Origin: Mycobacteriales bacterium
GTDB taxonomy: Bacteria; Actinomycetota; Actinomycetes; Mycobacteriales; SCTD01
Assembly (NCBI GenBank): GCA_038255675.1
Contig: JBBSLB010000002.1
Span: 1-34,976 of the forward strand
Direction of reading: 5' to 3'
Length of the DNA stretch: 34,976 bases
A program made the translations under genes and the position numbers. Shown one piece after another: positions 11,051-34,976 of this stretch. Under the pieces are notes generated by a model. The model was not told the DNA's origin. It searched no databases and worked only from the letters and a program-made list of their open reading frames with translations. Within the stretch, counting starts at the first letter, position 1; every line of letters begins with the position of its first letter.

Positions 11051-11113
11051 TGGACAACACACAAGAACGGGAGTAGAACCAACGAAACACAGATCGAACG
11101 GAGGTGAACCCAC
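11051..11113 (+). promoter_or_regulatory. Putative promoter/operator region of the PTS operon
   Basis: This is the only conspicuously lower-G+C stretch in the window. TGGACA (11051-11056), a 17-nt spacer and TAGAAC (11074-11079) resemble -35/-10 boxes. Direct repeats GAACGGGAG (11065-11073) and GAACGGAGG (11096-11104) are present, and the second overlaps the SD GGAGG before ATG 11114. Confidence 0.3.
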
Positions 11114-11875
11114 ATGTACGCCGAGGAGCGCCAGCAGTACATCGTCGGACTCGCCCGCAGTCGCGGCCGGGTCGACGTGGCCGAGCTGGCCGCCGAGCTC
11201 CAGGTCACCACCGAGACCGTTCGCCGCGACCTGACCATCCTGGAGCGGCAGGGCGTCCTGCGCCGGGTGCACGGCGGGGCCATCCCGGTGGAGCGGCTCG
11301 GCTTCGAGCCGGCGCTGGCGGCCCGTGACAGCGTCATGACCGCCGAGAAGGACCGCATCGCCAAGGCCGCGCTGGCCGAGCTGCCCCAGGAGGGCGCGAT
11401 CCTGCTCGACGCCGGCTCGACGACCGCCCGGCTGGCCGACCTGCTGCCGTCGGACCGGCCGCTCACGGTCGTCACCAACGCGCTGCCGTTGGCGCTGTCG
11501 CTGGTGTCCCGCCCGCACCTCACGGTGCTGCTGCTCGGCGGGCGCGTCCGCGGCCGGACCCTCGCCTCGGTCGACAGCTGGGCCACGGACGCCCTCGCCG
11601 GCACCTTCGTCGACGTCGCCTTCGTGGCCACCAACGGGGTGTCGGTGCGCCGCGGGCTGACGACCCCCGACCACGCCGAGGCCGCGACGAAGCGGGCGAT
11701 GATGGCCTCTGCAGCCCGCGTGGTGCTGCTCGCCGACCACACGAAGGTCGGGGTCGACCACCTCACCCGCTTCGGCGACCTGCACCAGGTCGACACGCTC
11801 ATCACCGACAGCGGGCTCGACGACCGCGCCACCGCCGAGCTCGAGGGCGCCGGACCGCGGGTGGTGCGCGCGTGA
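11114..11875 (+). CDS. DeoR/GlpR-family transcriptional repressor (FruR-like)
   Basis: 253 aa reading MYAEERQQYIVGLARSRGRVDVAELAAELQVTTETVRRDLTILERQGVLRRVHGGA..., i.e. an N-terminal DeoR HTH plus a C-terminal sugar-phosphate sensor domain. Confidence 0.9.
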   Translation: MYAEERQQYIVGLARSRGRVDVAELAAELQVTTETVRRDLTILERQGVLRRVHGGAIPVERLGFEPALAARDSVMTAEKDRIAKAALAELPQEGAILLDAGSTTARLADLLPSDRPLTVVTNALPLALSLVSRPHLTVLLLGGRVRGRTLASVDSWATDALAGTFVDVAFVATNGVSVRRGLTTPDHAEAATKRAMMASAARVVLLADHTKVGVDHLTRFGDLHQVDTLITDSGLDDRATAELEGAGPRVVRA

Positions 11876-12816
11876 TCGTCACCGTGACGCTGAACCCCAG
11901 CCTGGACCGCACCATCGAGGTCGGCGGCCTGGTCCGTGGCGCGCTGGTCCGCGGGACCTCGACGCGCGTGGACGCCGGCGGCAAGGGCGTCAACGTCGCT
12001 CGGGCGCTGACCGCCAACGGCGTGGCCGCCCGTGCCGTGCTGCCGCTCGGCGGGCCGGACGGCGAGCGCCTGCTGGACCTGCTCGCCTCCGCCGGGCTCG
12101 ACGTGGTGGCGGTCCCGGTCCGCAGCGCCACCCGCTCCAACGTCAGCCTGGTCGAGCCGGACGGGACGACGACGAAGGTCAACGAGCCGGGCGGACGCCT
12201 CGACCGCGACGACGTCGAGGCGCTGGTCGCCAGTGTGCTGGCTGCCGCCACGGGCGCCGACTGGGCCGTGCTGTGCGGCAGCCTGCCGCCGGGTGTGCCA
12301 CACGACGTCTACGCCCGCCTGTGCCGCGCCCTGCAGGCCGCCGGGACCAACGTCGCCGTCGACAGCAGCGGCTCGGCGCTCACCGCCGCCCTGGACGTCG
12401 GGCCCGCGCTCGTCAAGCCCAACCGCGAGGAGCTGGCCGAGACCGCCGGGCGTCCCCTGCTGACCCTGGGGGACGTCCTGACGGCGGCCGAGCAGCTGCG
12501 CGCACGTGGCGCCGGCAGCGTGCTGGCCAGCCTGGGCGCCGACGGCGCCCTGCTGGTCGAGCGAGCCGGCGTCCTGCGCGGCCACTCGACGGTGCTCGCC
12601 CCGCGCAGCTCGGTCGGGGCCGGCGACGCGATGCTCGCCGGCTTCCTGTCGGCCGGTGCCGCCGGCGCTCCCGCTCTTGCCACCGCCCTCGCCTGGGGCG
12701 CGGCCGCGGCCGGCCTGCCCGGCAGTCGCATGCCCCTTGCTTCCGACCTCCGGCCGGACGACGTCACCACCAGCCCGCTGCTCGACCGCACGACCCCGCT
12801 GTCCACGTCCCACTGA
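11872..12816 (+). CDS. fruK: PfkB-family ketohexose-phosphate kinase (1-phosphofructokinase / tagatose-6-P kinase class)
   Basis: 314 aa reading MIVTVTLNPSLDRTIEV...GGKGVNVARAL...KPNREEL...GAGDAMLAGF. The GTG start overlaps the DeoR stop (GTGA). Confidence 0.85.
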   Translation: MIVTVTLNPSLDRTIEVGGLVRGALVRGTSTRVDAGGKGVNVARALTANGVAARAVLPLGGPDGERLLDLLASAGLDVVAVPVRSATRSNVSLVEPDGTTTKVNEPGGRLDRDDVEALVASVLAAATGADWAVLCGSLPPGVPHDVYARLCRALQAAGTNVAVDSSGSALTAALDVGPALVKPNREELAETAGRPLLTLGDVLTAAEQLRARGAGSVLASLGADGALLVERAGVLRGHSTVLAPRSSVGAGDAMLAGFLSAGAAGAPALATALAWGAAAAGLPGSRMPLASDLRPDDVTTSPLLDRTTPLSTSH

Positions 12817-12832
12817 CCCAGGAGCGCACCCC

Positions 12833-14005
12833 ATGACCGCAGTCGCTGACGCAAAGCACCTAGAGGGAGCCGGGTTCCGCGCGCGCATCCAGCGCGGCGG
12901 CGGCTACCTCGCCGGCATGATCATGCCGAACATCGCTGCCTTCATCGCGTGGGGCCTGATCACCGCGATGTTCATCCCCACCGGCTGGATCCCGAACGAG
13001 CGGCTGGCCGAGCTGGTCGGCCCGATCATCACCGTGCTGCTGCCCGTCCTGATCGGCTACACCGGCGGGCGCCTCGTGCACGGCCAGCGCGGCGCGGTCG
13101 TCGGCGCCGTCGCCACCATGGGCGTGGTCGTCGGGACCGACATCCCGATGTTCCTGGGCGCCATGCTCATCGGCCCGGCCACCGCGTACGTCCTGAAGCT
13201 CATCGACGGGTTCATCCAGGACAAGGTCAAGGTCGGCTTCGAGATGCTGGTGGACAACTTCACCGCCGGCATCCTCGGCGTGCTGGCGGCACTCGCCGGG
13301 CTGCTCGGGATCGGCCCGGTCGTCGAGGGGCTCACCAAGGCGGCCGGCAACGGCGTGGACTTCCTCGTCGACACCGGCTTCCTGCCACTGGTCTCCCTGC
13401 TGGTCGAGCCCGCCAAGGTGCTCTTCCTCAACAACGCCATCAACTTCGGCGTTCTGTCCCCGCTCGGCGTCGCCGAGGCGACCGAGACCGGCAAGTCGGT
13501 GCTGTTCATGGTCGAGACCAACCCCGGCCCCGGCCTGGGAATCCTGCTGGCCTACTTCTTCTTCGGCCCGCGCCTGCTGCGCCTGTCCGCTCCCGGCGCC
13601 ATCGTCATCCACTTCCTCGGCGGGATCCACGAGATCTACTTCCCGTACGTCCTGATGAAGCCCAAGCTGATCCTCGCCGCCATCGCCGGCGGCGCCGCGG
13701 GCGTCGGCACGGCCGTCGTGACGGGTGCCGGCCTGGTCTCGACTCCCTCGCCCGGCAGCATCTTCGCCTACGCCGCGGTCACCCCCCGCGGAGGCTTCAT
13801 CCCGGTGATCCTGTCGATCCTGGTCGCCACAGCCGTGTCCTTCGCCGTCGCCTCGCTGCTGCTGGGCTTCGGCCGCGGCGAGAAGGCCGAGGAGGCGCCG
13901 CCGGTGCACGAGGACGCCGTCCCCGTGCAGGCATCGTCGGCCACAGCAGAGACGACCGCCCCCACGCACGCCCCGGCTATGCGCAACACCACCGCGGAGG
14001 CGTGA
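12833..14005 (+). CDS. PTS mannitol-class EIIC component (stand-alone)
   Basis: ATG 12833 follows AGGAG. The product reads ...RARIQRGGGYLAGMIMPNIAAFIAWGLITAMFIPTGWIPNERLAELVGPIITVLLPVLIGYTGGRLV...HFLGGIHEIYFPYVLMKP. This is near-collinear with my recollection of the E. coli MtlA EIIC domain. The upstream part of the track ORF (12506-12832) overlaps fruK out of frame. Confidence 0.9.
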   Translation: MTAVADAKHLEGAGFRARIQRGGGYLAGMIMPNIAAFIAWGLITAMFIPTGWIPNERLAELVGPIITVLLPVLIGYTGGRLVHGQRGAVVGAVATMGVVVGTDIPMFLGAMLIGPATAYVLKLIDGFIQDKVKVGFEMLVDNFTAGILGVLAALAGLLGIGPVVEGLTKAAGNGVDFLVDTGFLPLVSLLVEPAKVLFLNNAINFGVLSPLGVAEATETGKSVLFMVETNPGPGLGILLAYFFFGPRLLRLSAPGAIVIHFLGGIHEIYFPYVLMKPKLILAAIAGGAAGVGTAVVTGAGLVSTPSPGSIFAYAAVTPRGGFIPVILSILVATAVSFAVASLLLGFGRGEKAEEAPPVHEDAVPVQASSATAETTAPTHAPAMRNTTAEA

Positions 14006-14006
14006 G

Positions 14007-14315
14007 ATGCCAACAATTGCAGGCGCTTCCGTGACCAAAGTTGTCATCGCGTGCGATGCGGGGATGGGCAGCAGCGTCATGCTGGCCAGCCAGATGCGCA
14101 AGCGGCTGAAGAAGTACGACGTCGCCGTCGAGCACGTCGCGGTCAACGCGATCCCGGCCGACGCCCAGGTGGTGCTCTGCCACAGCGGGCTCGCCCAGCG
14201 CGCCCGCGGCACCGCCCCCGACGCGGTCGTCGTGCCGTTCCAGATCTTCATGGGCGACCCGGTCTTTGACCAGGTCGAGGCCGCGATCCGGGACGGCGGG
14301 ACCCTCGATGGGTGA
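14007..14315 (+). CDS. PTS mannitol-class EIIB component (stand-alone)
   Basis: 102 aa. VTKVVIACDAGMGSSVMLASQMRKRL matches the MtlA EIIB phospho-cysteine loop (IVACDAGMGSS). Confidence 0.88.
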   Translation: MPTIAGASVTKVVIACDAGMGSSVMLASQMRKRLKKYDVAVEHVAVNAIPADAQVVLCHSGLAQRARGTAPDAVVVPFQIFMGDPVFDQVEAAIRDGGTLDG

Positions 14316-14778
14316 CCAGCTCACCGCCGATGTGCTGCAGCTCGAGGGCGTCCGCCTCGGCCTGACCGCGGTCGACAAGTGGGATGCCGTCCGCCAGGCC
14401 GGCGAGCTGCTCGTGGAGCTCGGGGCGGTCGAGCCCGACTACGCGCCCGCCATGCTCGAGCGCGAGCGCTCGGTCTCGACCTTCATCGGCGAGGGCGTCG
14501 CCATCCCGCACGGCACCGACGCCGCCCGGGCGCTGGTGCTGCGGACCACGCTCGCGGTCCTGCAGTTCCCGGCCGGCGTGGACTGGGACGGCAACGACGC
14601 CCGCATCTGCGTCGCCATCGCCGCCAGCGGCGAGGAGCACGTCGAGGTGCTGTCCGCCCTGGCTGTCGTGCTCATGGACGCCGAGGCCGCCGAGCGCCTC
14701 CGCTCCGCCACCGACCCCCAGGACGTGCTGGCGCTGCTCGCCGGCCTGTCCGCAGACGACGAGGAGACCCCCGCATGA
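14308..14778 (+). CDS. PTS mannitol-class EIIA component (PTS_EIIA_2, stand-alone)
   Basis: ATG 14308 overlaps the EIIB stop (ATGGGTGA). ...VEPDYAPAMLERERSVSTFIGEGVAIPHGT... matches the MtlA EIIA phospho-histidine region. Confidence 0.88.
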   Translation: MGDQLTADVLQLEGVRLGLTAVDKWDAVRQAGELLVELGAVEPDYAPAMLERERSVSTFIGEGVAIPHGTDAARALVLRTTLAVLQFPAGVDWDGNDARICVAIAASGEEHVEVLSALAVVLMDAEAAERLRSATDPQDVLALLAGLSADDEETPA

Positions 14779-15815
14779 GAGTGGCCCGCTTCTACGAGCC
14801 CGGCGACGTACGGCTGGAGGACGCCCCGGAGCCGCAGGTCGGCGCCGGCGAGGTGAAGATCCGTGTGCGCGCCTGCTCGACCTGCGGCACGGACGTGAAG
14901 ATCCTCAACCACGGGCACCAGCACATCGACCCGCCCCGGGTCATGGGGCACGAGGTGGCCGGCGAGGTCGTCGACGTCGGTGCCGGCGTCAGCGGCTGGG
15001 CCGCCGGCGACCGCGTCCAGGTCATTGCGGCCGTCCCGTGCGGGACGTGCGCAGAGTGCGCGCGCGGCCGCATGACCATCTGCCCGAACCAGACCTCCGT
15101 CGGCTACCACTACGAGGGCGGCTTCGCGGAGTACCTCGTCGTGCCGCAGCAGGTGCTGGCCGTCGACGGCCTGAACCGGATTCCCGACGGCATCAGCTTC
15201 GCCGAGGCCTCGGTCGCCGAGCCACTGGCCTGCGTGCTGAACGGCCAGGAGCTCGCCGGTGTCGGACCGGGCGACGTCGTCGTCGTCGTGGGCGCCGGGC
15301 CGATCGGCTGCCTGCACGTGCGGCTGGCCCGCTCGCGCGGCGCCGCGCAGGTGCTGCTCGTCGAGCTCAACCGGTCGCGGCTCGACCTGTCGGCCGGCGT
15401 CGTCGCCCCCGACGAGGCGATCTGCAGCGCCGAGACCGACGCCGTGGACGCCGTCCTCAAGGCCACCGACGGCCGCGGCGCCGACGTCGTGATCACGGCG
15501 GCAGCCTCGGGCCAGGCCCAGGAGGAGGCGTTGCTCATGGCGGCGCGCGGCGGCCGGGTCAGCCTGTTCGGCGGACTGCCCAAGGACAAGCCGACCATCA
15601 CCCTGGACTCCAACCTCGTGCACTACCGCGAGCTGACGGTCGTCGGCGCCAACGGTTCGAGCCCGTCGCACAACAAGCGGGCGCTGGAGCTCATTGCCTC
15701 AGGTGACGTCCCGGTGCTCGACCTCATCACGCACCGGCTCCCCCTCGAGGGGGTGCTCGAGGCCTTCGGCATCGTCGCGCGCGGCGAGGCCATCAAGGTC
15801 ACTGTCGAGCCGTAA
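14775..15815 (+). CDS. Zn-dependent MDR-family alcohol/polyol(-phosphate) dehydrogenase
   Basis: ATG 14775 overlaps the EIIA stop (ATGA). The product reads MRVARFYEPGDVRLEDAPEPQVGAGEVKIRVRACSTCGTDVKILNHGHQHIDPPRVMGHEVAGEVVDVG...CGTCAECARG...VVGAGPIGC. It has the catalytic and structural Zn ligand patterns and the GxGxxG motif. Confidence 0.85.
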   Translation: MRVARFYEPGDVRLEDAPEPQVGAGEVKIRVRACSTCGTDVKILNHGHQHIDPPRVMGHEVAGEVVDVGAGVSGWAAGDRVQVIAAVPCGTCAECARGRMTICPNQTSVGYHYEGGFAEYLVVPQQVLAVDGLNRIPDGISFAEASVAEPLACVLNGQELAGVGPGDVVVVVGAGPIGCLHVRLARSRGAAQVLLVELNRSRLDLSAGVVAPDEAICSAETDAVDAVLKATDGRGADVVITAAASGQAQEEALLMAARGGRVSLFGGLPKDKPTITLDSNLVHYRELTVVGANGSSPSHNKRALELIASGDVPVLDLITHRLPLEGVLEAFGIVARGEAIKVTVEP

Positions 15816-15851
15816 GCCACGTCCCTGCAGCATTTCTCGAGGAGGAACTCC

Positions 15852-16136
15852 ATGGCACGACGCGAGGCGACCATCGGCTCACGGGTCGGGCTGCACGCCC
15901 GGCCGGCCGCGATCTTCGTTCAGGCCAGCGCTGCGGCGGGCGTCCCGGTGAAGGTGGGCAAGCCCGACGGGAAGCTCGTCGACGCCCGCAGCATGCTCGG
16001 TGTGCTGGCGCTCGGCGCCAGGAACGGCGACACCGTGGTGCTCGAGGCCGAGGGTGACGGCGCAGAGGCGGCGCTTGATTCCCTGGTCGCGCTGCTCCAG
16101 CAGGACCACGACGAGCCGGCCGCCGCGGATGCCTGA
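15852..16136 (+). CDS. ptsH: Phosphocarrier protein HPr
   Basis: 94 aa. GGAGGA precedes the ATG. The product MARREATIGSRVGLHARPAAIFVQ... contains the His-15 motif GLHARPA. Confidence 0.92.
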   Translation: MARREATIGSRVGLHARPAAIFVQASAAAGVPVKVGKPDGKLVDARSMLGVLALGARNGDTVVLEAEGDGAEAALDSLVALLQQDHDEPAAADA

Positions 16137-17793
16137 CCTGGCTACGGCCCTGAGCGGCATCGCCGTCTCCCCCGGCACGGGTGCGGGGCCAGTGTTCTGC
16201 CTGGCCCCGCCCCCGGCACTGCCCGCCCAGGACGGTCCGGTCGACGACCTGACCGCCGAGGCGAGCCGCGCCGTCGCGGCGCTCGAGCAGGTCGCCGCCG
16301 ACCTCGAGCGCCGCGCGGCCACGGCGACGAGCACCGCCGCCGACGTGCTGCAGGCGCAGGCGCTCATGGCCCGCGACCCGGTGCTGGCCGAGTCGGTCGC
16401 CGGGCGGGTGCTCGAGGGGGCTGGCGCGCCGTGGGCCGTCGACGCCGCCCTGCGCGAGCAGCAGGCCGTCTTCACCGACCTGGGCGGCTACCTCGGTGAG
16501 CGCGCGGCCGACCTGGACGACATCCGGGCGCGCGCGGTCGCTGTCTTGCTCGGGCTGGCGATGCCGGGCGTGCCGTCACCGGGAGTGCCGTTCGTCCTGG
16601 TCGCCGATGACCTCGCGCCGGCCGACACCGCGCAGCTCGACCGCAGCCAGGTGCGAGCCCTGGTCACCGCTCGCGGCGGCCCCACCAGCCACACCGCGAT
16701 CCTGGCCCGTGCGCTGGGCATCCCGGCGGTCGTCTGCTGTCGCGGCATCCTCGACCTGGCCGACGGCACGTCCGTGCTCGTCGACGGCACCACGGGTCAG
16801 GTCCGGCAGATCCGCGAGGACGAGGTCGCCGGCGCCCAGGCCGAGGCCGACGCCGCCCGTCTCGCGCAGGCCGCGGTCGCCGGCCCAGGCCGGACCGCCG
16901 ACGGCCACCCCGTCAAGCTGCTGCGCAACGTCGGCTCGGTTGAGGACCTCGCAGGCACCGCCGGAGACGAGTCCTTCGAGGGCGTCGGCCTGTTCCGTTC
17001 CGAGTTCCTCTACCTCGGTCGGACCTCCGCGCCGAGCGCGCAGGAGCAGGAGGCTGCCTACGTCGAGATGTTCGAGGCGATGGGCGGCGCGAAGATCGTG
17101 CTTCGCACCCTCGACGCCGGCGCCGACAAGCCGCTGCCGTTCCTGGACATGGAGGCCGAGGACAACCCGGCCCTGGGAGTACGAGGGCTGCGCGTCGCCC
17201 GGCGCCGGCCCGAGGTGCTCGCCGACCAGCTCGGGGCGGTCGCCCGCGCCGCCGAGCGGACCGGCGCCGACGTCTGGGTGATGGCACCGATGGTCTCTAC
17301 CGTCGAGGAGGCGGCAGCCTTCGCCGAGCAGGTGCACGCGCTCGGCCTGCCCCGGGCCGGGGTGATGGTCGAGGTGCCGGCCGCCGCGCTGCAGGCCGCG
17401 CGGATCCTCGAGGTCGTCGACTTCCTCAGCATCGGCACGAACGACCTGAGCCAGTACACGCTGGCGACCGACCGCATGAACGGCGAGCTGGCCGACCTGC
17501 TCGACCCGTGGCAACCGGCGCTGCTGCAGCTGCTCGCCATGTGCGCGGCGGCCGGCCGTGAGGCCGGCAAGTCGGTGAGCATCTGCGGCGAGGCGGCGGC
17601 CGATCCGCTGCTGGCCCCCGTCCTGGTCGGCATGGGCATCACCAGCCTGTCGATGTCGGCCGCGTCGCTGCCGGCCGTCCGGGCGGCGATGGCCACCCGA
17701 ACACTGGAGTCGTGCGAGAACCTCGCCCGGCTCGCGCTCGCGGCCCGCGACGCCACCTCGGCCCGGGCCGCTGTGGCCGAGCGGTCCGCCTGA
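16129..17793 (+). CDS. ptsI: Phosphoenolpyruvate-protein phosphotransferase (PTS Enzyme I)
   Basis: 554 aa from ATG 16129, which overlaps the ptsH 3' end. Motifs present: GIAVSPGTGAGPV, GGPTSHTAILARALGIPAVV (phospho-His), FRSEFLY, and IGTNDLSQYTLATDR...C (catalytic Cys in SICGE). Confidence 0.93.
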   Translation: MPDLATALSGIAVSPGTGAGPVFCLAPPPALPAQDGPVDDLTAEASRAVAALEQVAADLERRAATATSTAADVLQAQALMARDPVLAESVAGRVLEGAGAPWAVDAALREQQAVFTDLGGYLGERAADLDDIRARAVAVLLGLAMPGVPSPGVPFVLVADDLAPADTAQLDRSQVRALVTARGGPTSHTAILARALGIPAVVCCRGILDLADGTSVLVDGTTGQVRQIREDEVAGAQAEADAARLAQAAVAGPGRTADGHPVKLLRNVGSVEDLAGTAGDESFEGVGLFRSEFLYLGRTSAPSAQEQEAAYVEMFEAMGGAKIVLRTLDAGADKPLPFLDMEAEDNPALGVRGLRVARRRPEVLADQLGAVARAAERTGADVWVMAPMVSTVEEAAAFAEQVHALGLPRAGVMVEVPAAALQAARILEVVDFLSIGTNDLSQYTLATDRMNGELADLLDPWQPALLQLLAMCAAAGREAGKSVSICGEAAADPLLAPVLVGMGITSLSMSAASLPAVRAAMATRTLESCENLARLALAARDATSARAAVAERSA

Positions 17794-17797
17794 GCGG

Positions 17798-18886
17798 TCA
17801 GCCACGGCGGCGCGGCTCGAGCTCCAGCGGCGCGTAGTAGTGCTCGGCGCCTTCCCGCTCGACGTCGGCGAGCCAGTGCCCGTCGTACTGCTCGGTCGGG
17901 CCCTGAGCCGGGTCGGCGAGCGACCAGGCCTGGCGGCGGTAGGTCCAGTTGTCGGGCTGCAGCCGGTGGCTCTCCCGGAACCACGCAACGGCCGGCTCCG
18001 GCGACCCGGCGGCGTGCAGGTGCTGGCCGAGGGCGAAGGCCGCGGCCGCCTGGGCCTGCTCCGCCGGGCGCGGGCGGGAGCGCTCGAGGACCTCCTCGGC
18101 CGACAGCGCGAAGCGGCTGGCGGGGCCGTGTGCGACCCAGTCGCGCAGCGCGCCGACGTAGCCCTCCGGGTCGATCTGCATCGCCTTGAGGTGGGGCTGC
18201 ACGGTGCGCAGCCGGCTCACCGCCGCCGCCGGCAGCGACGCCACGACCTTGGGGTCCTCGAGGTCGTAGCTGGCAAAGGTCGGAGGCGCCGGGTAGGCCG
18301 TCTCGGGCGGGCGGACGACAGTGCCGTCCTCGTCGACCCAGATGCCCGACGGGACGTTGACCACGCCGAACAGCTCACCGAGCCGGTGTCCGCTGTCCAC
18401 CACGACCGGGAAGTCGACGCCGGCGGCGAACGGCGCCGCGGCCGCGGCGCTGGCGTCCATCGCCACGCTGTACAGCTCGAAGCCCGAGGGCGCGAGCTCA
18501 GTGCGCAGTGCCTGCCAGACCGGCAGGTCGAAGCGGCAGCCTCACCAGCTCGCCCAGGCGGCGATCAGCACCTTCTTCCCGCGCAGGGCAGCGAGGGGGA
18601 AGGGCTCGCCCGTCAGCGTCGGGAGCACCAGGTCGGGGGCCTGGACGGTGGTCATCGCCCGTCCACCGCCCGACGGGCCGAGCGACCAGAGACCGGCCGG
18701 CTCGTCGTGCAGCAGCGGCCGCCCCATCCGCTCGGCGAAGGCGGCGAGGTCGACCTGGCCGTCACGAAGCGTGCCGGGCGGCAGCGGCACGCACTGCTCC
18801 TTGCGGCACGCCCCCTCGGGCTTGACCTCCCAGCCGGTCTCCCGCGCGAGCTGGTCGACGGGCACCCGAGATGTCGTGGAGATCAC
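17798..18886 (-). CDS. Thioredoxin-fold ResA/TlpA-like selenoprotein candidate (W-A-x-x-U-G-C motif); the in-frame TGA at 18544-18542 is read as selenocysteine
   Basis: The two track ORFs (tail of 18542-19801 and 17798-18466) are in the same frame, separated only by one TGA. Read-through gives ...APDLVLPTLTGEPFPLAALRGKKVLIAAWASW-U-GCRFDLPVWQALRTELAPSGFELYSVAMDAS...VNVPSGIWVDEDGTVV.... This is a continuous thioredoxin/redoxin fold with the TGA at the position of the first redox Cys. GC3 stays high across the TGA. The start is uncertain: GTG 18886 is preferred because the GC3-rich segment GWEVKPEGACRKEQCVPL is coding. Alternatives are GTG 18865 and ATG 18655. I see no signal peptide or TM helix. 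Confidence 0.72.
18511..18527 (-). promoter_or_regulatory. Candidate bacterial SECIS stem-loop for the WAxxUGC gene
   Basis: The minus-strand RNA is CCUGCC-GGUCU-GGCAGG, a 6-bp stem with a 5-nt loop. It starts 14 nt after the UGA. As I recall, the loop GGUCU resembles the apical G-G-U-C loop of the E. coli fdhF SECIS. Confidence 0.55.
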
Positions 18887-18907
18887 ACCGCAGGTTACCG
18901 TCAGGGA

Positions 18908-20344
18908 GTGCAGCTGCCGGACGGGTGGGTCGTCGTGCTCAAGCGCGACTGCCCCACGTGCACCCTCGTCGAGCCGGTGCTGCACCAGCTGGCTGATGCC
19001 GGCGGGCTGACCGTCTACAGCCAGGACGACCCGGGCTTCCCCGCCGGCCTGACCGTCGTCGACGACAGCGAGCTCGAGTCGAGCTGGCGGCTGCAGGTCG
19101 ACACCGTCCCGACGCTGCTGCGGGTGGAGGACGGCGCCGAGGTCGCCCGTGCCGTCGGTTGGCTCCGCAGCTCCTGGGAGGAGCTGACCGGGGTGACCGG
19201 GCTCGGCCCCGACCTGCCCGACCACCGGCCCGGCTGCGGCTCCCGCTCGGTCGAGTGGGGCGTCGAGGAGGAGCTCGACCGGCGGTACGGCGAGCGCATC
19301 CTGACCGCCCGCACCGTCGAGCTGGCCGACCTCGAGGACGAGTACGAGGCGGCGTACGCCCGCGGCTGGACCGACGGCCTGCCTGTCGTCCCGCCGACCG
19401 AGGCGCGGGTTCTGGCGATGCTGAAGGGCACGTCGCGCGCGCCGGACGAGGTCGTCGCCGTCGTGCCGCCGGACCTGGTGGAGTGCACCGTCGAGAAGGT
19501 CGCGGTCAACGCGGTGCTGGCCGGCTGCCTGCCCGAGCACCTGCCGGTGGTCCTGGCCGCCGTTGCCGCGGCCTGCACCGACGGCTTCAACATGCACGGC
19601 GTGCTCGCCACGACGATGCCGGCCGGCCCGGTCGTCGTCGTGAACGGCCCTGTGGCGCGGGCGATCGGCATGAACAGCGGGGTGAACGCGCTCGGGCAGG
19701 GCAACCGCGCCAACGCCACGATCGGCCGGGCGCTGCAGCTCGTGGTCCGCAACGTCGGCGGCGGCCGCCCCGGCGAGGTCGACCGCGGCAGCCAGGGCCA
19801 ACCGGGCAAGTACACCGCCTGCTTCGCCGAGGACGAGGAGGGCTCCCCCTTCGACCCCCTGGCCGAGAGCCGTGGGGTCGAGGGCTCGGCCCTCACCCTG
19901 TTCGCCGGCTGCGGCTGGTGGCCCGTCGTCGACCAGCTGTCACGCACCCCGGAGTCGCTGGCCCGCAGCCTCGCGGCGGGCCTGCGCGGCGTCGGCCACC
20001 CCAAGCTGGCGATCGTCTTCGACGCGCTGCTGGTGCTCAGCCCCGAGCACGGCCGGGTCTTCCGCGAGGCCGGCTGGGACCGCGCGCGGCTGCTGGCGGA
20101 GCTCGACGGGCTGCTGACCGTCCCGGCCGCTGAGCTCTCCCGCGGTGTCGACGGCATGGCCGAGGGGATGCCACCGGCCATGATCGCCGGTTGGGGCCAG
20201 GCCGTGCCGCTGCCGAAGTTCCGCCCCGGCGGCCTGCTCATCGCCCACGCCGGCGGCACCGCCGGGCTGTTCTCGACCATCGTGCCCGGCTGGGTCAGCG
20301 GCGCCGGCGGCAGCGAGCCCACCACCGTCCCGATAGGAGCCTGA
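18908..20344 (+). CDS. Thioredoxin-like (CPTC) domain fused to a ~350-aa conserved domain of unknown function; partner of the two selenoprotein candidates
   Basis: Only the 3' part of the 834-aa track ORF (17840-20344) is credible. From GTG 18908 it reads VQLPDGWVVVLKRDCPTCTLVEPVLHQLADAGGLTVYSQDD...DTVPTLLRVEDG (thioredoxin-like), then ...ARGWTDGLPVVPPTEARVLAML...VAVNAVLAGCLPEHLPVVLAA...GVNALGQGNRANATIGRALQLVVRNVGGGRPGEVD.... The region upstream of 18908 is antisense to the ResA-like gene. The stop overlaps the next start (TGATG). Confidence 0.7.
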   Translation: MQLPDGWVVVLKRDCPTCTLVEPVLHQLADAGGLTVYSQDDPGFPAGLTVVDDSELESSWRLQVDTVPTLLRVEDGAEVARAVGWLRSSWEELTGVTGLGPDLPDHRPGCGSRSVEWGVEEELDRRYGERILTARTVELADLEDEYEAAYARGWTDGLPVVPPTEARVLAMLKGTSRAPDEVVAVVPPDLVECTVEKVAVNAVLAGCLPEHLPVVLAAVAAACTDGFNMHGVLATTMPAGPVVVVNGPVARAIGMNSGVNALGQGNRANATIGRALQLVVRNVGGGRPGEVDRGSQGQPGKYTACFAEDEEGSPFDPLAESRGVEGSALTLFAGCGWWPVVDQLSRTPESLARSLAAGLRGVGHPKLAIVFDALLVLSPEHGRVFREAGWDRARLLAELDGLLTVPAAELSRGVDGMAEGMPPAMIAGWGQAVPLPKFRPGGLLIAHAGGTAGLFSTIVPGWVSGAGGSEPTTVPIGA

Positions 20345-20859
20345 TGCGCGTCCTGCTGGATCCCACGTCCGAGCGCGTTCCCTCGACGCGCACCCTGAAC
20401 CCGCGGCCTGCCTCGCTCGACGGACTGACGGTCGGGCTGCTCGACATCTCCAAGGCGCGCGGTGACGTGCTGCTCGACCGGCTGGAGTCCCGGCTCGTGG
20501 CCGATGGGGTGACCGTCCGGCGCTACGCCAAGCCGACCTTCGCCAAGCCCGCGCCGGTTGACCTGCGGCACGAGATCGCCGTGCAGTGCGAGGTGGTCAT
20601 CGAGGCGCTCGCCGATTGAGGCAGTTGCGCGTCGTGCAGTGTGCACGACATCGCCGACCTCGAGGCCCGCGGCCTGGTGGGGGTCTTCCTGGCCAGCAGC
20701 GAGTTCCAGGACGCCGCCGACGCGCAGTCGCGCGCACTCGGCCTTGCCGTGTCCTACGTCCTGGTGCCGCACCCGATCCAGGACCGCACCGACGAGGAGA
20801 TGACGGCGCTGGCCGATGCGGCGTACGACGCCGTTCTGGCGGCAATTACGGACAGATAG
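20344..20859 (+). CDS. UGSC-motif small selenoprotein candidate; the in-frame TGA at 20617-20619 is read as selenocysteine (U92)
   Basis: ATG 20344 is preceded by TAGGAG. Track ORFs 20191-20619 and 20641-20859 are in the same frame, 21 nt apart. Read-through gives ...CEVVIEALAD-U-GSCASCSVHDIADLEARGLVGVFLASSEFQDAADAQSRALGL...VLVPHPIQDRTDEEM...ITDR. This is 171 aa with the motif U-x-x-C-x-x-C. Confidence 0.75.
20631..20649 (+). promoter_or_regulatory. Candidate bacterial SECIS stem-loop for the UGSC gene
   Basis: GUCGUGCA-GUG-UGCACGAC is a perfect 8-bp stem, or 7 bp with loop AGUGU. It starts 11 nt after the UGA, and the loop contains G-U. This is the canonical spacing for bacterial SECIS elements. 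Confidence 0.6.
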
Positions 20860-20946: not shown

Positions 20947-21225
20947 GTGGACAACGACCGGGATCACGAGCTGCTGGCCCACTTCTGGAGCCTGCACGCC
21001 GCTGTCATCAAGCGCGACGGCCTCGAGGACCGGATGCGCGCCGGCGTGCTCGACCAGGAGCTGCTCGACCGCAGCCTGGCCGCCGCGGAGGGCGTGCTCG
21101 AGGCCAGATCGGCGCTCTACCGCCACCTGATGGCCCATGGCTGGACGCCACCACCCGCGCTGGTGCGCGACCTCGCCTACGACGAGATCGTGCTGTCGGA
21201 GACCGACGGCGCGCTGCACGGCTGA
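20947..21225 (+). CDS. Hypothetical small protein
   Basis: High-GC3 frame reading VDNDRDHELLAHFWSLHAAVIKRDGLEDRMRAGVLDQELLDRSLAAAEGVLEARSALYRHLMAHGWTPPPALVRDL.... The start is ambiguous (TTG 20890 or GTG 20947). I recognise no family. Confidence 0.45.
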   Translation: MDNDRDHELLAHFWSLHAAVIKRDGLEDRMRAGVLDQELLDRSLAAAEGVLEARSALYRHLMAHGWTPPPALVRDLAYDEIVLSETDGALHG

Positions 21226-21294
21226 CCGAGCGGGTGGAGCGCCAGCACCGTGTGAACGCGACCGGGCCAGGGCCGGCGGGTGTAGGACTCCTGC

Positions 21295-21765
21295 GTGAGC
21301 GAACCTGTCGAGCACCGCGGTGAGAGTCCGCTCCAGCGCGCCGACCGCAACTGGGACGAGCTGCTCGGGGAGCTGCGGGTCACGCAGACCGGCGTCGCAA
21401 TCCTGTTCTCGCTGCTGCTGACGGTGCCGTTCTCGGCCGGCTTCGAGGACGTCGACCGCTTCCAGCGCCGCGTCTACCTCGTGGGGCTGCTGCTGGCCGC
21501 CGCGTCGTCCGTCGTGCTCATCGCTCCGGTGGCCTACCACCGCGGCCTGTTCGCGCACCGGCAGAAGCAGGCCGTCGTGCGCGCTTCGAACCGCTTCGCC
21601 GTCGTCGGTCTGGCCCTGCTCTGCCTGGCGCTGTCGGCGGTGCTGCTCCTGGTCGCCGACGTGCTGCTGGACCGCGGCGCAGCGGTCGCCATCGCCGGGG
21701 TCTTCGGAGTGGCGACCGCCAGCCTGTGGTTCGCGCCGGCGGCACTGCGGCGACGCGCGCTCTGA
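21295..21765 (+). CDS. DUF6328-family membrane protein
   Basis: 156 aa reading ...RADRNWDELLGELRVTQTGVAILFSLLLTVPFSAGF..., followed by further TM helices. The RNWxELLQELRVxQTGVQILF motif is characteristic of DUF6328. Confidence 0.7.
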   Translation: MSEPVEHRGESPLQRADRNWDELLGELRVTQTGVAILFSLLLTVPFSAGFEDVDRFQRRVYLVGLLLAAASSVVLIAPVAYHRGLFAHRQKQAVVRASNRFAVVGLALLCLALSAVLLLVADVLLDRGAAVAIAGVFGVATASLWFAPAALRRRAL

Positions 21766-33233: not shown

Positions 33234-34511
33234 TCACGGGCAGAGTCTTGCGAACGCCCGGTCCTTGCCTGCGGCCTTTGCCGCGTACAGGGCGAGGTCG
33301 GCTTGGGCGAGCAGGTCCGCCGACGTGCGGATGGTCGCGCCGGGGAGCCAGGTCGACAGACCCACGGACACGCTCAGCGACCGGTCGCCGGCCTGCCGGA
33401 TGCTCACCTGACGGGCCGCAGCGACGAGTCTGTCGGCGACCGCGTGCGCGCCCCCGGCGTCGATGCCCGGCAGCACCACGGCGAACTCCTCGCCACCGAA
33501 GCGCGCAAGGACGTCGCCCGCGCGCTGCAGTGATCCGCTGAGAGCCCGGGCGACGCTGCAGAGGGCCGCGTCCCCCACCAGGTGGCCGAAGGCGTCATTG
33601 AAGGACTTGAAGTTGTCGATGTCGATCATCAGAACCGACAGGGGTTCTGCGGCACGTGTGCAACGGCGCCACTCGCTGCGCAGGGCCTGGTCGAAGGCCC
33701 GGCGGTTCGGGACGCCCGTGAGGGCGTCGCTCATGACCATGCGGAGCATCTGCTCCTCCATGGCCTTCTCGGCGCTGACGTCGAGAACGAGCCCGACCGC
33801 CCGGGCCGGTCTGCCACGTCGGTCCCGGTCCAGGATCCTTCCCCGCAAGGACAGATGACGGGTCGTGGCCTCGTTTCCGACCCGGAGCTCGACCTCCGTC
33901 GCGCCGACGGTGAGGAGCTCCTGGACCGCTACCAGGACTCGGTCGCCATCGTCGGGATGAACTGCGGCCGCGAGGGCTTGGGCGTCGGCGGGCAGGGACT
34001 CCGCGGTCAGGCCCAAGACCTCGGCGGCCTGCGGCTCCCAGGTGAACAGACCCTGGCCGATGTCCAGGTCCCACAGCGCGGCGACCGTCTGGCCGAGGGC
34101 GAGGTCCAGCCCGGTGCGCAGGTGCAGGCTCTGCGCCAGGAGCAGGTGGAAGCGGGTGGTGTCGCGACCGGCGGCCCACCAGAGGTCGCTGTCGGGGATA
34201 GGGCGCGCCACCCACTCCAGGTGGACGGTGCCCCCGTCCCTTTTCACGAAGCGGTTGTCCAGCAGCACCTCGGCGGCACCCGTCTCCAGAGCGGCCAGGG
34301 CCGCCACGACAGCACCCAGGTCGTCGGGATGGACGAGCTCCAGCAGGGAGCGGTCCTGGGCCTGCGTGGTGCTCAAGCCGAGCAGGGTGGCGAAGGGCTC
34401 GTTGACCTCGCGCAGGTGCCCGTCCAGACCGGCGACGGAGAACAACTCGACCTCGGAGGTGCGGAACGTCGACCTGACGCCCGCCAGCGACGCTTCGGGG
34501 AGCACCGTCAC
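33234..34511 (-). CDS. PAS-PAS-GGDEF diguanylate cyclase (GGEEF active site, RxxD I-site)
   Basis: 425 aa. Two PAS-like segments are followed by ...DALTGVPNRRAF...MIDIDNFKSFNDAFGHLVGD...LQRAGDVLARFGGEEFAVVLPG.... RAGD lies 5 residues before GGEEF. The GTG start overlaps the BLUF stop (GTGA). Confidence 0.9.
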   Translation of the reverse strand: MTVLPEASLAGVRSTFRTSEVELFSVAGLDGHLREVNEPFATLLGLSTTQAQDRSLLELVHPDDLGAVVAALAALETGAAEVLLDNRFVKRDGGTVHLEWVARPIPDSDLWWAAGRDTTRFHLLLAQSLHLRTGLDLALGQTVAALWDLDIGQGLFTWEPQAAEVLGLTAESLPADAQALAAAVHPDDGDRVLVAVQELLTVGATEVELRVGNEATTRHLSLRGRILDRDRRGRPARAVGLVLDVSAEKAMEEQMLRMVMSDALTGVPNRRAFDQALRSEWRRCTRAAEPLSVLMIDIDNFKSFNDAFGHLVGDAALCSVARALSGSLQRAGDVLARFGGEEFAVVLPGIDAGGAHAVADRLVAAARQVSIRQAGDRSLSVSVGLSTWLPGATIRTSADLLAQADLALYAAKAAGKDRAFARLCP

Positions 34512-34933
34512 CGGACGCGGTTCTTCGCGTAGAGCTTCAGCAGGGTCTGCGCCACGCCCGCGTTCGTGACCAGGTCGGGGTTGACCAGCGGGTAGTCGGT
34601 GGCGGGGGTGAAGCCGTCGAGCTCCTCCGCCAGGTCCTCGTCGTCGACGTGCTCGAAGCCCATCGTCCAGTCCGGGAACAGCGGCGCGGCGACGTCGGCA
34701 TTCATCAGCAAGCGCAGGTTGACGTGCCGGTCGTCGGTCGCGATCCGCGCATAGGTCTCCCTCAGCGCAGCCGCGTCGCCCTCAAGCACCTGCAGGAAGC
34801 TCTGGCTGCTGTAAAGAAGCATGCCGCTGAGACCAACCTCCTCGTTGTTGCTCCTGGACACTTCGAGCAGCCGCACGAGCTCTGCAGGGCTCATGTCGTG
34901 GGTGGCCTGGCTGCAGTAGATGACACGCTTCAT
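34508..34933 (-). CDS. BLUF-domain blue-light FAD photoreceptor (stand-alone)
   Basis: 141 aa reading MKRVIYCSQATHDMSPAELVRLLEVSRSNNEEVGLSGMLLYSSQSFLQVLEGDAAALRETYARIATDDRH...DWTMGF. The conserved BLUF Tyr, Gln (FLQVLEG) and Trp/Met are present. Confidence 0.9.
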   Translation of the reverse strand: MKRVIYCSQATHDMSPAELVRLLEVSRSNNEEVGLSGMLLYSSQSFLQVLEGDAAALRETYARIATDDRHVNLRLLMNADVAAPLFPDWTMGFEHVDDEDLAEELDGFTPATDYPLVNPDLVTNAGVAQTLLKLYAKNRVR

Positions 34934-34976
34934 GGCTGCCTCTTGGTCGGGGTCTGGGACTGCGGGGCCGATCGGA

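What the first reader, a model, noticed from the sequence alone, without database searches (positions are those of the whole stretch)
18511..18547. In-frame TGA in a thioredoxin-fold gene at the first redox position (WASW-U-GC), with a GGUCU-loop hairpin 14 nt downstream
On the minus strand the codons read GCC TGG GCG AGC TGG TGA GGC TGC CGC TTC GAC CTG CCG GTC TGG CAG GCA. The TGA replaces the N-terminal Cys of what would be a W-C-x-C type active site after the beta-strand KKVLIAAWASW.

The sequence CCUGCC-GGUCU-GGCAGG (18527-18511) forms a 6-bp stem. As I remember, its loop resembles the apical loop of the E. coli fdhF SECIS.

U-G-C places only one residue between Sec and Cys. This is unusual compared with the CxxC of ResA/TlpA, and it implies a strained selenenylsulfide.
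Basis: partly seen in the sequence, partly recalled or inferred. Interest (0 to 1): 0.85.

Follow-up and report, generated by a model that had tools for sequence, protein, structure and literature searches.

The report
Known UGC selenoprotein gene with SECIS

Summary
Observation confirmed. On the minus strand one frame runs from GTG 18886 to the stop at 17800-17798. It is interrupted only by TGA 18544-18542 (…KKVLIAAWASW-U-GCRFDLPVWQ…). A 6-bp hairpin with loop GGUCU (18527-18511) lies 14 nt downstream.

With U read as C, the 362-aa product hits NCBIfam NF041054, "ResA-like WAxxUGC motif-containing protein", at 467 bits (cutoff 300).

The motif AWASW[C/U]GC is invariant in every homolog recovered with it:
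- About 30 genome loci and 26 database proteins carry Cys at this column.
- At least 125 distinct contigs (47-78% GC) carry TGA at the same codon.

The hairpin is under selection only in the TGA forms:
- All six pairs form in 112 of 121 Sec forms, against 1 of 35 Cys forms.
- Compensatory C-G to U-A switches occur in two pairs.
- The second loop base is G in all 121 Sec forms.

dN/dS is about 0.2 on both sides of the TGA. A second selenoprotein gene, of the UGSC family, lies 2 kb away.

[quoted passage not shown] Its function is untested.

Verdict: real, correctly interpreted, already known, low interest.

The parts
17798..18886 (-). Complete gene for a 362-aa ResA-like WAxxUGC selenoprotein. 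GTG start at 18886-18884, Sec codon at residue 115, TGA stop at 17800-17798.
   Evidence: NCBIfam NF041054 at 467 bits against a cutoff of 300, covering model positions 2-353 of 354. Pfam AhpC-TSA/Redoxin over residues 82-191. The start aligns with the M-I-L start of 26 homologs. dN/dS is 0.16-0.27 on both sides of the TGA.
18542..18544 (-). In-frame UGA, read as selenocysteine (U115). It is the first position of the U-G-C redox motif.
   Evidence: The same codon is TGA in at least 125 distinct contigs. It is TGC/TGT in 35 distinct Cys-form motif sites from genome loci, and Cys in 26 database proteins.
18536..18538 (-). TGC for Cys117, the presumed resolving residue of the U-G-C motif.
   Evidence: Invariant in alignment A1. 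It aligns to the second Cys of CxxC, with a one-residue deletion, in solved ResA/DsbE proteins.
18528..18541 (-). 14-nt spacer between the UGA and the SECIS stem.
   Evidence: The spacing is fixed across all Sec forms because it lies in coding sequence without indels.
18511..18527 (-). SECIS hairpin. 5' arm CCUGCC 18527-18522, loop GGUCU 18521-18517, 3' arm GGCAGG 18516-18511. It is written in the codons D(3rd base)-L-P-V-W-Q-A(1st base).
   Evidence: Consensus structure from RNAalifold. 98.6% of cells pair, and two pairs show C-G to U-A compensation in 29 and 13 sequences. All six pairs form in 112 of 121 Sec forms against 1 of 35 Cys forms. Loop base 2 is G in 121 of 121, and base 3 is U or G. 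The stem Leu codon is CTG or TTG in 124 of 125, although only 51% of Leu codons elsewhere in the same genes end in TG.
18791..18808 (-). Codons for Cys27 to Cys32 (G-A-C-x4-C-V-P), an invariant second cysteine pair in the N-terminal domain.
   Evidence: Invariant columns G25, C27, C32 and P34 in 27 sequences. They lie in a beta-hairpin in the AlphaFold model (strands 25-28 and 31-33). Their role is unknown.

Best explanation
This is a working selenoprotein gene.

Recoding. Translation starts at GTG 18886. At UGA 18544-18542 the ribosome does not terminate. The mRNA hairpin 14 nt downstream (6-bp stem, loop GGUCU) acts as a bacterial SECIS. It recruits SelB-GTP-Sec-tRNA(Sec), selenocysteine is inserted, and translation continues to the stop at 17800-17798. 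The product is a 362-aa protein.

Protein. It belongs to the curated family 'ResA-like WAxxUGC motif-containing protein'. It has a TlpA/ResA-type thioredoxin fold in which the usual W-C-x-x-C has lost one residue and reads W-U-G-C. Sec115 sits at the N-terminus of helix alpha-1, in the position of the attacking Cys. Cys117 is the resolving partner.

Inferred, not shown. The pair cycles through a small-ring selenenylsulfide that is more oxidising and more reactive than a CxxC disulfide. The protein acts in the cytoplasm, because it has no signal peptide or membrane anchor. An N-terminal domain with an invariant CX4C pair and a C-terminal helical (TPR-like) domain serve partner or substrate recognition or electron relay. 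The physiological substrate is unknown.
For: Shown by tools:
- Family membership: 467 bits against a cutoff of 300, full length.
- Sec/Cys pairing at one invariant column.
- At least 120 metagenome contigs found with a DNA pattern that says nothing about the hairpin. All read WASW*GCRxDLP[V/G]WQ in frame.
- Hairpin statistics. All six pairs form in 112 of 121 Sec forms against 1 of 35 Cys forms. Of the five Cys forms encoding the same L-P-[V/G]-W-Q peptide, none keeps all six pairs, and four use CTC, CTA or TTA for Leu.
- Covariation. Leu1-Gln3 pair: CG 101, UA 13, UG 6, CA 1. Asp3-next-codon pair: CG 83, UA 29, UG 2, CA 4. Fisher p = 4e-12 and 5e-21, with at least 4 and at least 12 independent switches on an NJ tree. 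Shuffle and slide controls agree.
- The stem Leu codon ends in G in all 125, against 51% NTG elsewhere in the same genes.
- Similar purifying selection upstream and downstream of the TGA, dN/dS 0.16-0.27.
- TGA is otherwise the ordinary stop codon here, ending this gene and the neighbouring 478-aa gene.
- A second selenoprotein-family gene with an in-frame TGA and a hairpin lies 2 kb away: UGSC, NF041046, 146 bits against 125.
- Fold: the AlphaFold model of homolog P0006 has pLDDT 91.5. The best PDB matches are ResA, DsbE and TlpA, with target TM-score 0.70-0.79.
- One-residue deletion relative to CxxC.

Literature:
- The UGC-containing Prx-like/TlpA-like selenoprotein family is listed in PMC2398784 and PMC13188914.
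- The E. coli SECIS needs a stem-loop 11 nt after the UGA, with G23 and U24 in the loop (PMC8659212).
- CGC peptide -0.167 V against thioredoxin -0.270 V.
Against: - No selA, selB, selD or tRNA-Sec lies in the 35-kb window, which is the whole contig. The Sec machinery of this organism is therefore unseen.
- No Rfam family matches the hairpin.
- The hairpin on its own does not fold better than shuffles.
- It lacks the bulged U of the E. coli fdhF element, and its loop G-U lies 2 nt further from the UGA.
- Part of the stem is imposed by the conserved peptide L-P-x-W-Q, so sequence conservation alone would not prove an RNA element. The argument rests on synonymous sites and on the Sec-versus-Cys contrast.
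- Nothing here shows selenium incorporation or any enzymatic activity.
Confidence: 0.92

Rival explanations
1. Pseudogene or sequencing error. A TGC-to-TGA nonsense change, or a miscall, has inactivated an ordinary Cys-form gene.
For: A single-base change separates TGC from TGA. Cys forms are common in the family. Gene callers treat the locus as broken and call only a 220-aa fragment, P0001.
Against: - TGA is at the identical codon in at least 125 distinct contigs from organisms of 47-78% GC.
- The downstream frame is intact and under purifying selection (dN/dS 0.19-0.27), equal to the upstream part.
- A hairpin with compensatory changes accompanies TGA but not TGC.
Confidence: 0.02
2. Two genes. 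Translation terminates at the TGA, giving a 114-aa N-terminal protein. The 222-aa ORF is expressed on its own from GTG 18466.
For: A GTG at 18466 opens a 222-aa ORF. Databases hold many products of about 220 aa of this kind.
Against: - The split would cut the thioredoxin fold immediately before its active-site residue. The 222-aa piece would begin after helix alpha-1, inside the second strand of the fold (the one after alpha-1).
- The 25 codons between the TGA and GTG 18466 are conserved as protein, including the invariant G116, C117, D120 and W124.
- Full-length Cys homologs are colinear single proteins of 344-372 aa.
- The fragments of about 220 aa carry no Pfam domain, and their full-length counterparts do.
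Confidence: 0.03
3. The UGA is read through, but not as selenocysteine. A near-cognate tRNA inserts Trp, Cys or Arg, with the hairpin acting as a generic read-through stimulator.
For: Downstream structures can stimulate stop-codon read-through in general. The Sec machinery is not visible in the window.
Against: - The column is strictly Cys or TGA, never Trp or Arg. That pattern is the signature of Sec/Cys exchange.
- The loop carries an invariant G followed by U or G at the distance expected for SelB recognition.
- Its GGUCU matches the fdhF apex.
- NCBI curators model the family as a selenoprotein.
- A second selenoprotein-family gene with TGA is adjacent.
Confidence: 0.03

Closest known systems
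NCBIfam NF041054 (WAxxUGC_long), 'ResA-like WAxxUGC motif-containing protein'
   Same: Full-length match at 467 bits against a cutoff of 300. Same W-A-x-x-U-G-C motif and the same three-part architecture: N-terminal domain, thioredoxin fold, C-terminal helical domain.
   Different: Nothing found. The window gene is an ordinary member, from an uncultured relative of Frankiaceae/Mycobacteriales (95% identical protein in MAG JAJAYV010000452).
[quoted passage not shown]
   Same: Thioredoxin-fold or AhpC-TSA-type domain, the Sec-containing motif UGC, and many Cys homologs (46 Sec and 855 Cys in GOS). It is reported as more abundant in non-marine samples.
   Different: I could not fetch the papers' example sequences. 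Identity with the 'long' NCBIfam family is therefore inferred from motif and domain, not tested.
ResA / TlpA / CcmG (DsbE) thiol-disulfide oxidoreductases
   Same: Best structural matches: 2f9s, 1st9, 3gl3 and 1jfu, with target TM-score 0.57-0.79. Same W-A/G-S/T-W-C context, and a V-N-V-P loop at the cis-Pro position.
   Different: - C/U-G-C instead of C-x-x-C, a one-residue deletion.
- No signal peptide or membrane anchor (read from the N-terminal sequence).
- Extra N-terminal CX4C domain and a C-terminal helical domain of about 150 aa with no PDB match.
- Not linked to cytochrome-maturation genes.
E. coli fdhF SECIS
   Same: A stem-loop immediately 3' of the UGA inside the coding sequence. 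The apical GGUCU is identical. G then U in the loop are the bases critical for SelB.
   Different: - The spacer is 14 nt instead of 11, so the loop G-U is at positions 25-26 rather than 23-24.
- The 6-bp stem is perfect, without the bulged U17.
- No conserved lower stem.
CXC redox motifs (CGC peptide as a PDI mimic)
   Same: One residue lies between the two redox-active chalcogens, with Gly as the spacer.
   Different: Here the motif sits in a thioredoxin fold and has Se at the first position. Its potential and activity are unmeasured.

Membership tests
NCBIfam NF041054 ResA-like WAxxUGC motif-containing protein | HMM score above the curated cutoff over the full model | tested here: met
   467.4 bits against 300. 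Residues 2-355 match model positions 2-353 of 354.
NCBIfam NF041054 ResA-like WAxxUGC motif-containing protein | W-A-x-x-U/C-G-C motif | tested here: met
   W111 A112 S113 W114 U115 G116 C117. These columns are invariant, or nearly so for S113, in 27 sequences.
Bacterial selenoprotein gene (SelB/SECIS-dependent UGA recoding) | In-frame UGA aligned with a conserved Cys in homologs | tested here: met
   TGA in at least 125 contigs. Cys in about 30 genome loci and 26 proteins at the same column. At least 15 Sec/Cys switches on an NJ tree.
Bacterial selenoprotein gene (SelB/SECIS-dependent UGA recoding) | Conserved stem-loop just 3' of the UGA, with a G in the apical loop | tested here: met
   A 6-bp stem 14 nt after the UGA. 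98.6% of cells pair, with compensatory changes in two pairs. Loop base 2 is G in 121 of 121.
Bacterial selenoprotein gene (SelB/SECIS-dependent UGA recoding) | selA, selB, selC (tRNA-Sec) and selD present in the genome | not testable with these tools
   None lies in the 35-kb contig or in the 157 fetched loci. The rest of the genome is not available. The adjacent UGSC gene with its own TGA and hairpin is indirect support.
Bacterial selenoprotein gene (SelB/SECIS-dependent UGA recoding) | Selenium actually incorporated at the UGA | not testable with these tools
   Needs 75Se labelling or mass spectrometry.
E. coli fdhF-type SECIS | 17-nt upper stem-loop 11 nt after the UGA, with bulged U17 and loop G23/U24 (PMC8659212) | tested here: not met
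   The loop GGUCU is shared. However, the spacer is 14 nt, G-U is at positions 25-26, and there is no bulged U. It works like an fdhF SECIS but is not of that exact type.
TlpA/ResA/DsbE thiol-disulfide oxidoreductases | Thioredoxin fold with a TlpA-type insertion | tested here: met
   Foldseek best hits are ResA, DsbE and TlpA, with probability 1.00 and rmsd 1.8-2.6 A over about 116 residues. This used the model of a 55%-identical homolog. Pfam Redoxin and AhpC-TSA also match.
TlpA/ResA/DsbE thiol-disulfide oxidoreductases | C-x-x-C active site | tested here: not met
   U-G-C. There is a one-residue gap against WCxPC in every alignment shown. NCBIfam ResA and TlpA models score 54 and 39 bits, far below their cutoffs of 170 and 230.
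TlpA/ResA/DsbE thiol-disulfide oxidoreductases | Extracytoplasmic location (signal peptide, lipobox or membrane anchor) | tested here: not met
   The N-terminus VISTTSRVPVDQLARETGWEVKPEGAC... and the homolog N-termini are hydrophilic and form a folded domain. This was judged by inspection. No predictor was run.
Peroxiredoxins (AhpC/TSA) | P-x-x-x-T/S-x-x-C peroxidatic motif | tested here: not met
   The sequence before U115 is I-A-A-W-A-S-W. Position -3 is Ala and position -7 is not Pro. The Pfam AhpC-TSA hit reflects the shared fold only.

The most novel reading that the evidence does not exclude
The family's SECIS is written entirely in the codons of the conserved helix-alpha-1 peptide D-L-P-(V/G)-W-Q. 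Cys forms would then carry a latent SECIS only one to three synonymous changes from a working one. That would explain the repeated Sec/Cys switching, at least 15 events. On this reading the protein is not a ResA-type reductase. It would be an uncharacterised cytoplasmic redox enzyme with a one-residue-spaced Se-S pair, a second invariant CX4C pair and a helical-repeat domain. In this actinobacterial lineage it would work together with the divergently transcribed Trx-like/UGSC selenoprotein operon.
Probability: 0.3. Interest if true: 0.45.

Novelty: already known. Interest (0 to 1): 0.25.

Why it matters
For annotation. The gene is miscalled in the source data as a 220-aa hypothetical protein, and dozens of relatives are split in the same way. 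Recognising the Sec codon restores a 362-aa redox protein and marks this organism as a selenocysteine user.

For biology. The family is widespread in soil and freshwater metagenomes and has never been characterised. A thioredoxin fold with a U-x-C pair is an unusual redox centre whose potential, partners and substrate are unknown. The clean Sec-versus-Cys contrast at synonymous sites is a good natural data set on what a minimal actinobacterial or soil-bacterial SECIS needs.

None of this is new in kind.

Tried and rejected
- Rfam scan of 18380-18680 at E <= 10: only noise, no SECIS family.
- Single-sequence folding: not significant for this hairpin, the UGSC hairpin or the true fdhF SECIS. I dropped it as a criterion.
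- An extended lower stem, and a UGA-containing 5' hairpin suggested by MFE folds: not supported by the 117-sequence consensus.
- Conserved gene neighbourhood. All-against-all clustering of ORFs within +/-5 kb in 157 loci gave only the gene itself, its antisense and alternative frames, and generic oxidoreductases. The Trx-like/UGSC neighbours are shared only by the four closest relatives.
- Search for tRNA-Sec in the window and all loci: none.
- Search for sel genes among 20 window ORFs: none.
I used a 55%-identical Cys homolog instead. Coordinates are not returned, so the distance between the CX4C pair and the UGC site could not be measured.
- Ungapped dN/dS was wrong for loci with indels. I replaced it with a codon alignment. 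L007 and L005 remain noisy.
- Literature searches for 'WAxxUGC', for 'UGC motif' with selenoprotein, and for the sequence GCCGGUCUGGC found nothing. I recalled that sequence as part of a Moorella SECIS. That resemblance stays unverified and is not used.
- Peroxiredoxin and genuine ResA/TlpA membership were considered and rejected (see the membership test).
Full report
**1. What is in the sequence**

The reverse strand of 17600-19200 and its translation show one reading frame. It runs from GTG 18886-18884 to a TGA stop at 17800-17798. Its only internal stop is TGA 18544-18542.

Fourteen nucleotides after the TGA lies CCUGCC (18527-18522), GGUCU (18521-18517), GGCAGG (18516-18511).

The window is 73.6% G+C. 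In such sequence a 6-bp G+C-rich hairpin is not remarkable. Fold z-scores are -1.35 for 81 nt and -0.23 for 45 nt. The authentic E. coli fdhF SECIS does no better, at -0.94. The question therefore had to be settled by comparison with other sequences.

**2. What the protein is**

With the TGA read as Cys, the 362-aa product matches NCBIfam NF041054, 'ResA-like WAxxUGC motif-containing protein' (equivalog):
- E = 3e-140, 467 bits against a curated cutoff of 300.
- The match covers positions 2-353 of the 354-position model.
- The 'U' in the family name is selenocysteine.

Other matches:
- Pfam sees only the generic AhpC-TSA/Redoxin domain over residues 82-191, plus weak TPR signals near the C-terminus.
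- The true ResA and TlpA models score far below their cutoffs.

An alignment with 26 full-length homologs confirms the start: V-I-S aligns with M-I-L. It also shows conservation along the whole length. Invariant features include:
- W111, A112, W114, C/U115, G116, C117, D120 and W124.
- The N-V-P loop at the cis-proline position.
- A second cysteine pair, C27 and C32 (G-A-C-x4-C-V-P), in an N-terminal domain.
- An N-W-T-Y-[KR]-R-Q-A-W motif in a C-terminal helical domain.

An AlphaFold model of a 55%-identical Cys homolog is confident (pLDDT 91.5, pTM 0.90). Its central domain superposes on ResA, DsbE, TlpA and CcmG, with target TM-score up to 0.79. The flanking domains have no PDB counterpart.

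Residue-level alignments to solved structures read WASWCG-CR against WASWCGPCR, WATWCPPCR and WGTWCKPCE. The TGA therefore occupies the N-terminal, attacking Cys position. The family has lost one residue between the two redox positions.

**3. Sec/Cys test**

A scan of one genome per species returned 36 loci. The motif AWASW[C/U]GC is present in all but the two most distant loci.
- TGA occurs in five close relatives (79-95% identity; Frankiaceae, Mycobacteriales and Actinomycetota MAGs) and in a 53%-identical Solirubrobacterales MAG.
- TGC or TGT occurs in Frankia, Parafrankia, Gordonia, Nocardioides, Acidimicrobiia, Microthrixaceae and some proteobacteria.

That scan was biased towards Cys, because one of its search peptides was AWASWCGC. 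I therefore scanned metagenome contigs for the DNA pattern TGGGCNWSNTGGTGAGGNTGYCGNNNNGA. This pattern fixes the TGA but says nothing about the hairpin.
- Every one reads ...WASW*GCRxDLP[V/G]WQ... in frame and continues as the family sequence.
- The Sec-form genes span 47-78% G+C.

On an NJ tree of 110 Sec and 59 Cys forms, the two states interleave with at least 15 switches.

In the protein database the close relatives of the window protein appear as fragments of about 220 aa without a Pfam domain. The window's own gene is among them as P0001. The more distant Cys forms are full-length and are called 'peroxiredoxin' or 'ResA-like WAxxUGC motif-containing protein'. This is the usual mis-annotation of selenoprotein genes.

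**4. The hairpin is a selected RNA element in Sec forms only**

The stem is written in the codons D(3rd base)-L-P / W-Q-(1st base of the next codon). Part of it therefore follows from the conserved peptide, and the test has to use synonymous sites and the Sec-versus-Cys contrast.

- Among 121 distinct Sec-form sequences, 112 form all six pairs. Among 35 Cys forms, one does.
- Of the five Cys forms that encode the same L-P-[V/G]-W-Q peptide, none keeps all six pairs. Four use CTC, CTA or TTA for Leu (read).
- In Sec forms the Leu codon is CTG or TTG in 124 of 125, and the remaining codon also ends in G. Only 51% of Leu codons elsewhere in the same genes end in TG, and CTC is nearly as common as CTG.
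- Two pairs covary.
  - Leu 1st base with Gln 3rd base: CG 101, UA 13, UG 6, CA 1.
  - Asp 3rd base with the 1st base of the next codon: CG 83, UA 29, UG 2, CA 4.
  - Fisher p = 4e-12 and 5e-21. There are at least 4 and at least 12 independent switches on a tree built from flanking sequence.
- The formal count on 117 sequences:
  - 98.6% of cells pair, against 27-66% for slid partners.
  - 42 cells change on both sides, against 11.2 +/- 2.6 in shuffles (0 of 500).
  - Covariation score 0.210 against 0.122 (0 of 500).
- RNAalifold returns exactly this hairpin and nothing else.
- The loop is N-G-[U/G]-N-U. The G is invariant in 121 of 121 Sec forms. In Cys forms this position is G, C, U or A.

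The E. coli rule, as reviewed in PMC8659212, is a stem-loop 11 nt after the UGA with G23 and U24 in the loop and a bulged U17. I verified the fdhF sequence. It is 100% identical to fdhF in H1-H3, and the best match is at least 99% identical in 5413 of 5420 records. Its apex GCAGGUCUGC shares GGUCU with the window.

The window element differs in three ways. Its spacer is 14 nt, so G-U is at positions 25-26. It has no bulge. It has no conserved lower stem. It works like the fdhF SECIS but is not of that exact type.

**5. Both halves are translated**

Codon-aligned comparisons of the window with its four closest relatives give dN/dS of 0.16-0.18 for the 114 codons before the TGA. For the 247 codons after it the values are 0.19-0.27.

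TGA is the ordinary stop here. It ends this gene and the neighbouring 478-aa gene. A reassigned genetic code is therefore not the explanation, and the recoding must be local.

**6. Context**

The window holds no tRNA, and the 20 ORFs scanned include no sel gene. The window is the entire contig (P0001: longest contig 34976). The Sec machinery therefore cannot be checked.

A second selenoprotein gene lies 2 kb away on the other strand.
- Gene 20344-20859 has an in-frame TGA at 20617-20619 (...EALAD-U-GSC...).
- It matches NF041046, 'UGSC family (seleno)protein', at 146 bits against a cutoff of 125.
- It has a 7-8-bp hairpin, GUCGUGC-AGUGU-GCACGAC, 11 nt after the TGA. That places G-U at positions 23-24.
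- It is translationally coupled (TGATG) to a 478-aa gene at 18908-20344. That gene has a CPTC thioredoxin-like N-terminus, no Pfam or NCBIfam match, and more than 8000 homologs.
- The same pair occurs in Geodermatophilus, where UGSC is annotated as two pieces.

The WAxxUGC gene is divergent from this operon, with only 21 nt between the two start codons. That adjacency is shared only by the four closest relatives. Across 157 loci no neighbour is generally conserved.

**7. Mechanism**

Shown:
- A Sec/Cys column at the attacking position of a TlpA/ResA-type fold.
- A SECIS-like hairpin selected only when the codon is TGA.
- Purifying selection on both sides of the TGA.

Following from established knowledge of bacterial Sec decoding: SelB-GTP-Sec-tRNA(Sec) binds the hairpin as the ribosome approaches the UGA, and Sec is inserted in competition with RF2.

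Inferred:
- Sec115 attacks a substrate disulfide, sulfenate or peroxide, and Cys117 resolves it through a small-ring selenenylsulfide.
- A CGC peptide disulfide has E = -0.167 V, against -0.270 V for thioredoxin. The couple is therefore probably much more oxidising than in ResA.
- The protein is cytoplasmic, because its N-terminus is hydrophilic and folded.
- The invariant CX4C pair and the helical C-terminal domain probably serve regeneration or partner recognition. A metal site is an alternative that I cannot exclude.

**8. Comparison with what is known, and novelty**

The family type is listed as 'Prx-like (UGC-containing)', with 46 Sec and 855 Cys sequences, in the 2008 GOS selenoproteome (PMC2398784). 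[quoted passage not shown] That review also notes that the functions of such proteins remain uncharacterised.

No paper mentions 'WAxxUGC', and I found no experimental work on the family.

Its remaining value lies in correcting the annotation and in the unexplored chemistry of a U-x-C thioredoxin fold.

Interest 0.25.

Noticed in passing
window 20344-20859 (+); TGA 20617-20619; hairpin 20631-20649: A second selenoprotein gene, of the UGSC family (NF041046, 146 bits against 125). It has an in-frame TGA (...EALAD-U-GSCASC...). A hairpin GUCGUGC-AGUGU-GCACGAC lies 11 nt downstream, which places loop G-U at positions 23-24 as in E. coli fdhF.
   Followed up: partly
window 18908-20344 (+): A 478-aa protein with a CPTC thioredoxin-like N-terminus and a large C-terminal part. 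It matches no Pfam or NCBIfam family but has more than 8000 database homologs. Its stop overlaps the UGSC start (TGATG). The same gene pair is in Geodermatophilus (L157), so this looks like a conserved, uncharacterised partner of UGSC selenoproteins.
   Followed up: partly
window 18887-18907: Only 21 nt separate the divergent start codons of the WAxxUGC gene (GTG 18886, minus strand) and the 478-aa gene (GTG 18908, plus strand). The spacing is 21-23 nt in L001-L004. This implies leaderless transcripts, or promoters lying inside each other's coding sequence.
   Followed up: no
L157 6431-6964: In a cultured Geodermatophilus genome the UGSC gene is annotated as two ORFs of 92 and 77 aa, both hitting PF24696. 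This is presumably the same split at a Sec TGA.
   Followed up: no
L008-L013 (Frankia spp.): Each Frankia locus carries two different WASWCGC genes. One reads ...CGCREDLRLWSALR and the other ...CGCAHDLPLWAELR. These are paralogous Cys forms close together (compare).
   Followed up: no
L046, L137, L035, L097: A few family members look damaged. L046 and L137 lose the family reading frame shortly after the hairpin. L035 (Cys form) diverges right after CGC and hits a stop. L097 has GGG in place of the invariant Trp codon. These are possible pseudogenes or assembly errors.
   Followed up: no
protein database hits P0003-P0113: Dozens of 'hypothetical proteins' of about 220 aa without Pfam domains are the C-terminal parts of Sec-form WAxxUGC genes, truncated by gene callers at the TGA. 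This is a systematic mis-annotation that includes the window's own gene (P0001).
   Followed up: partly
window 11108-17793 (+): A DeoR/GlpR-type regulator, mannitol-type PTS IIC, a IIA domain, an HPr-like ORF and PtsI form a PTS sugar-uptake cluster. It ends just 3' of the end of the WAxxUGC gene, in convergent orientation.
   Followed up: no
window 20947-21225 (+), 21286-21765 (+), 34508-34975 (-): A 92-aa ORF conserved in L001-L003 with no family, a DUF6328 protein, and a BLUF blue-light sensor domain protein cut by the contig end.
   Followed up: no
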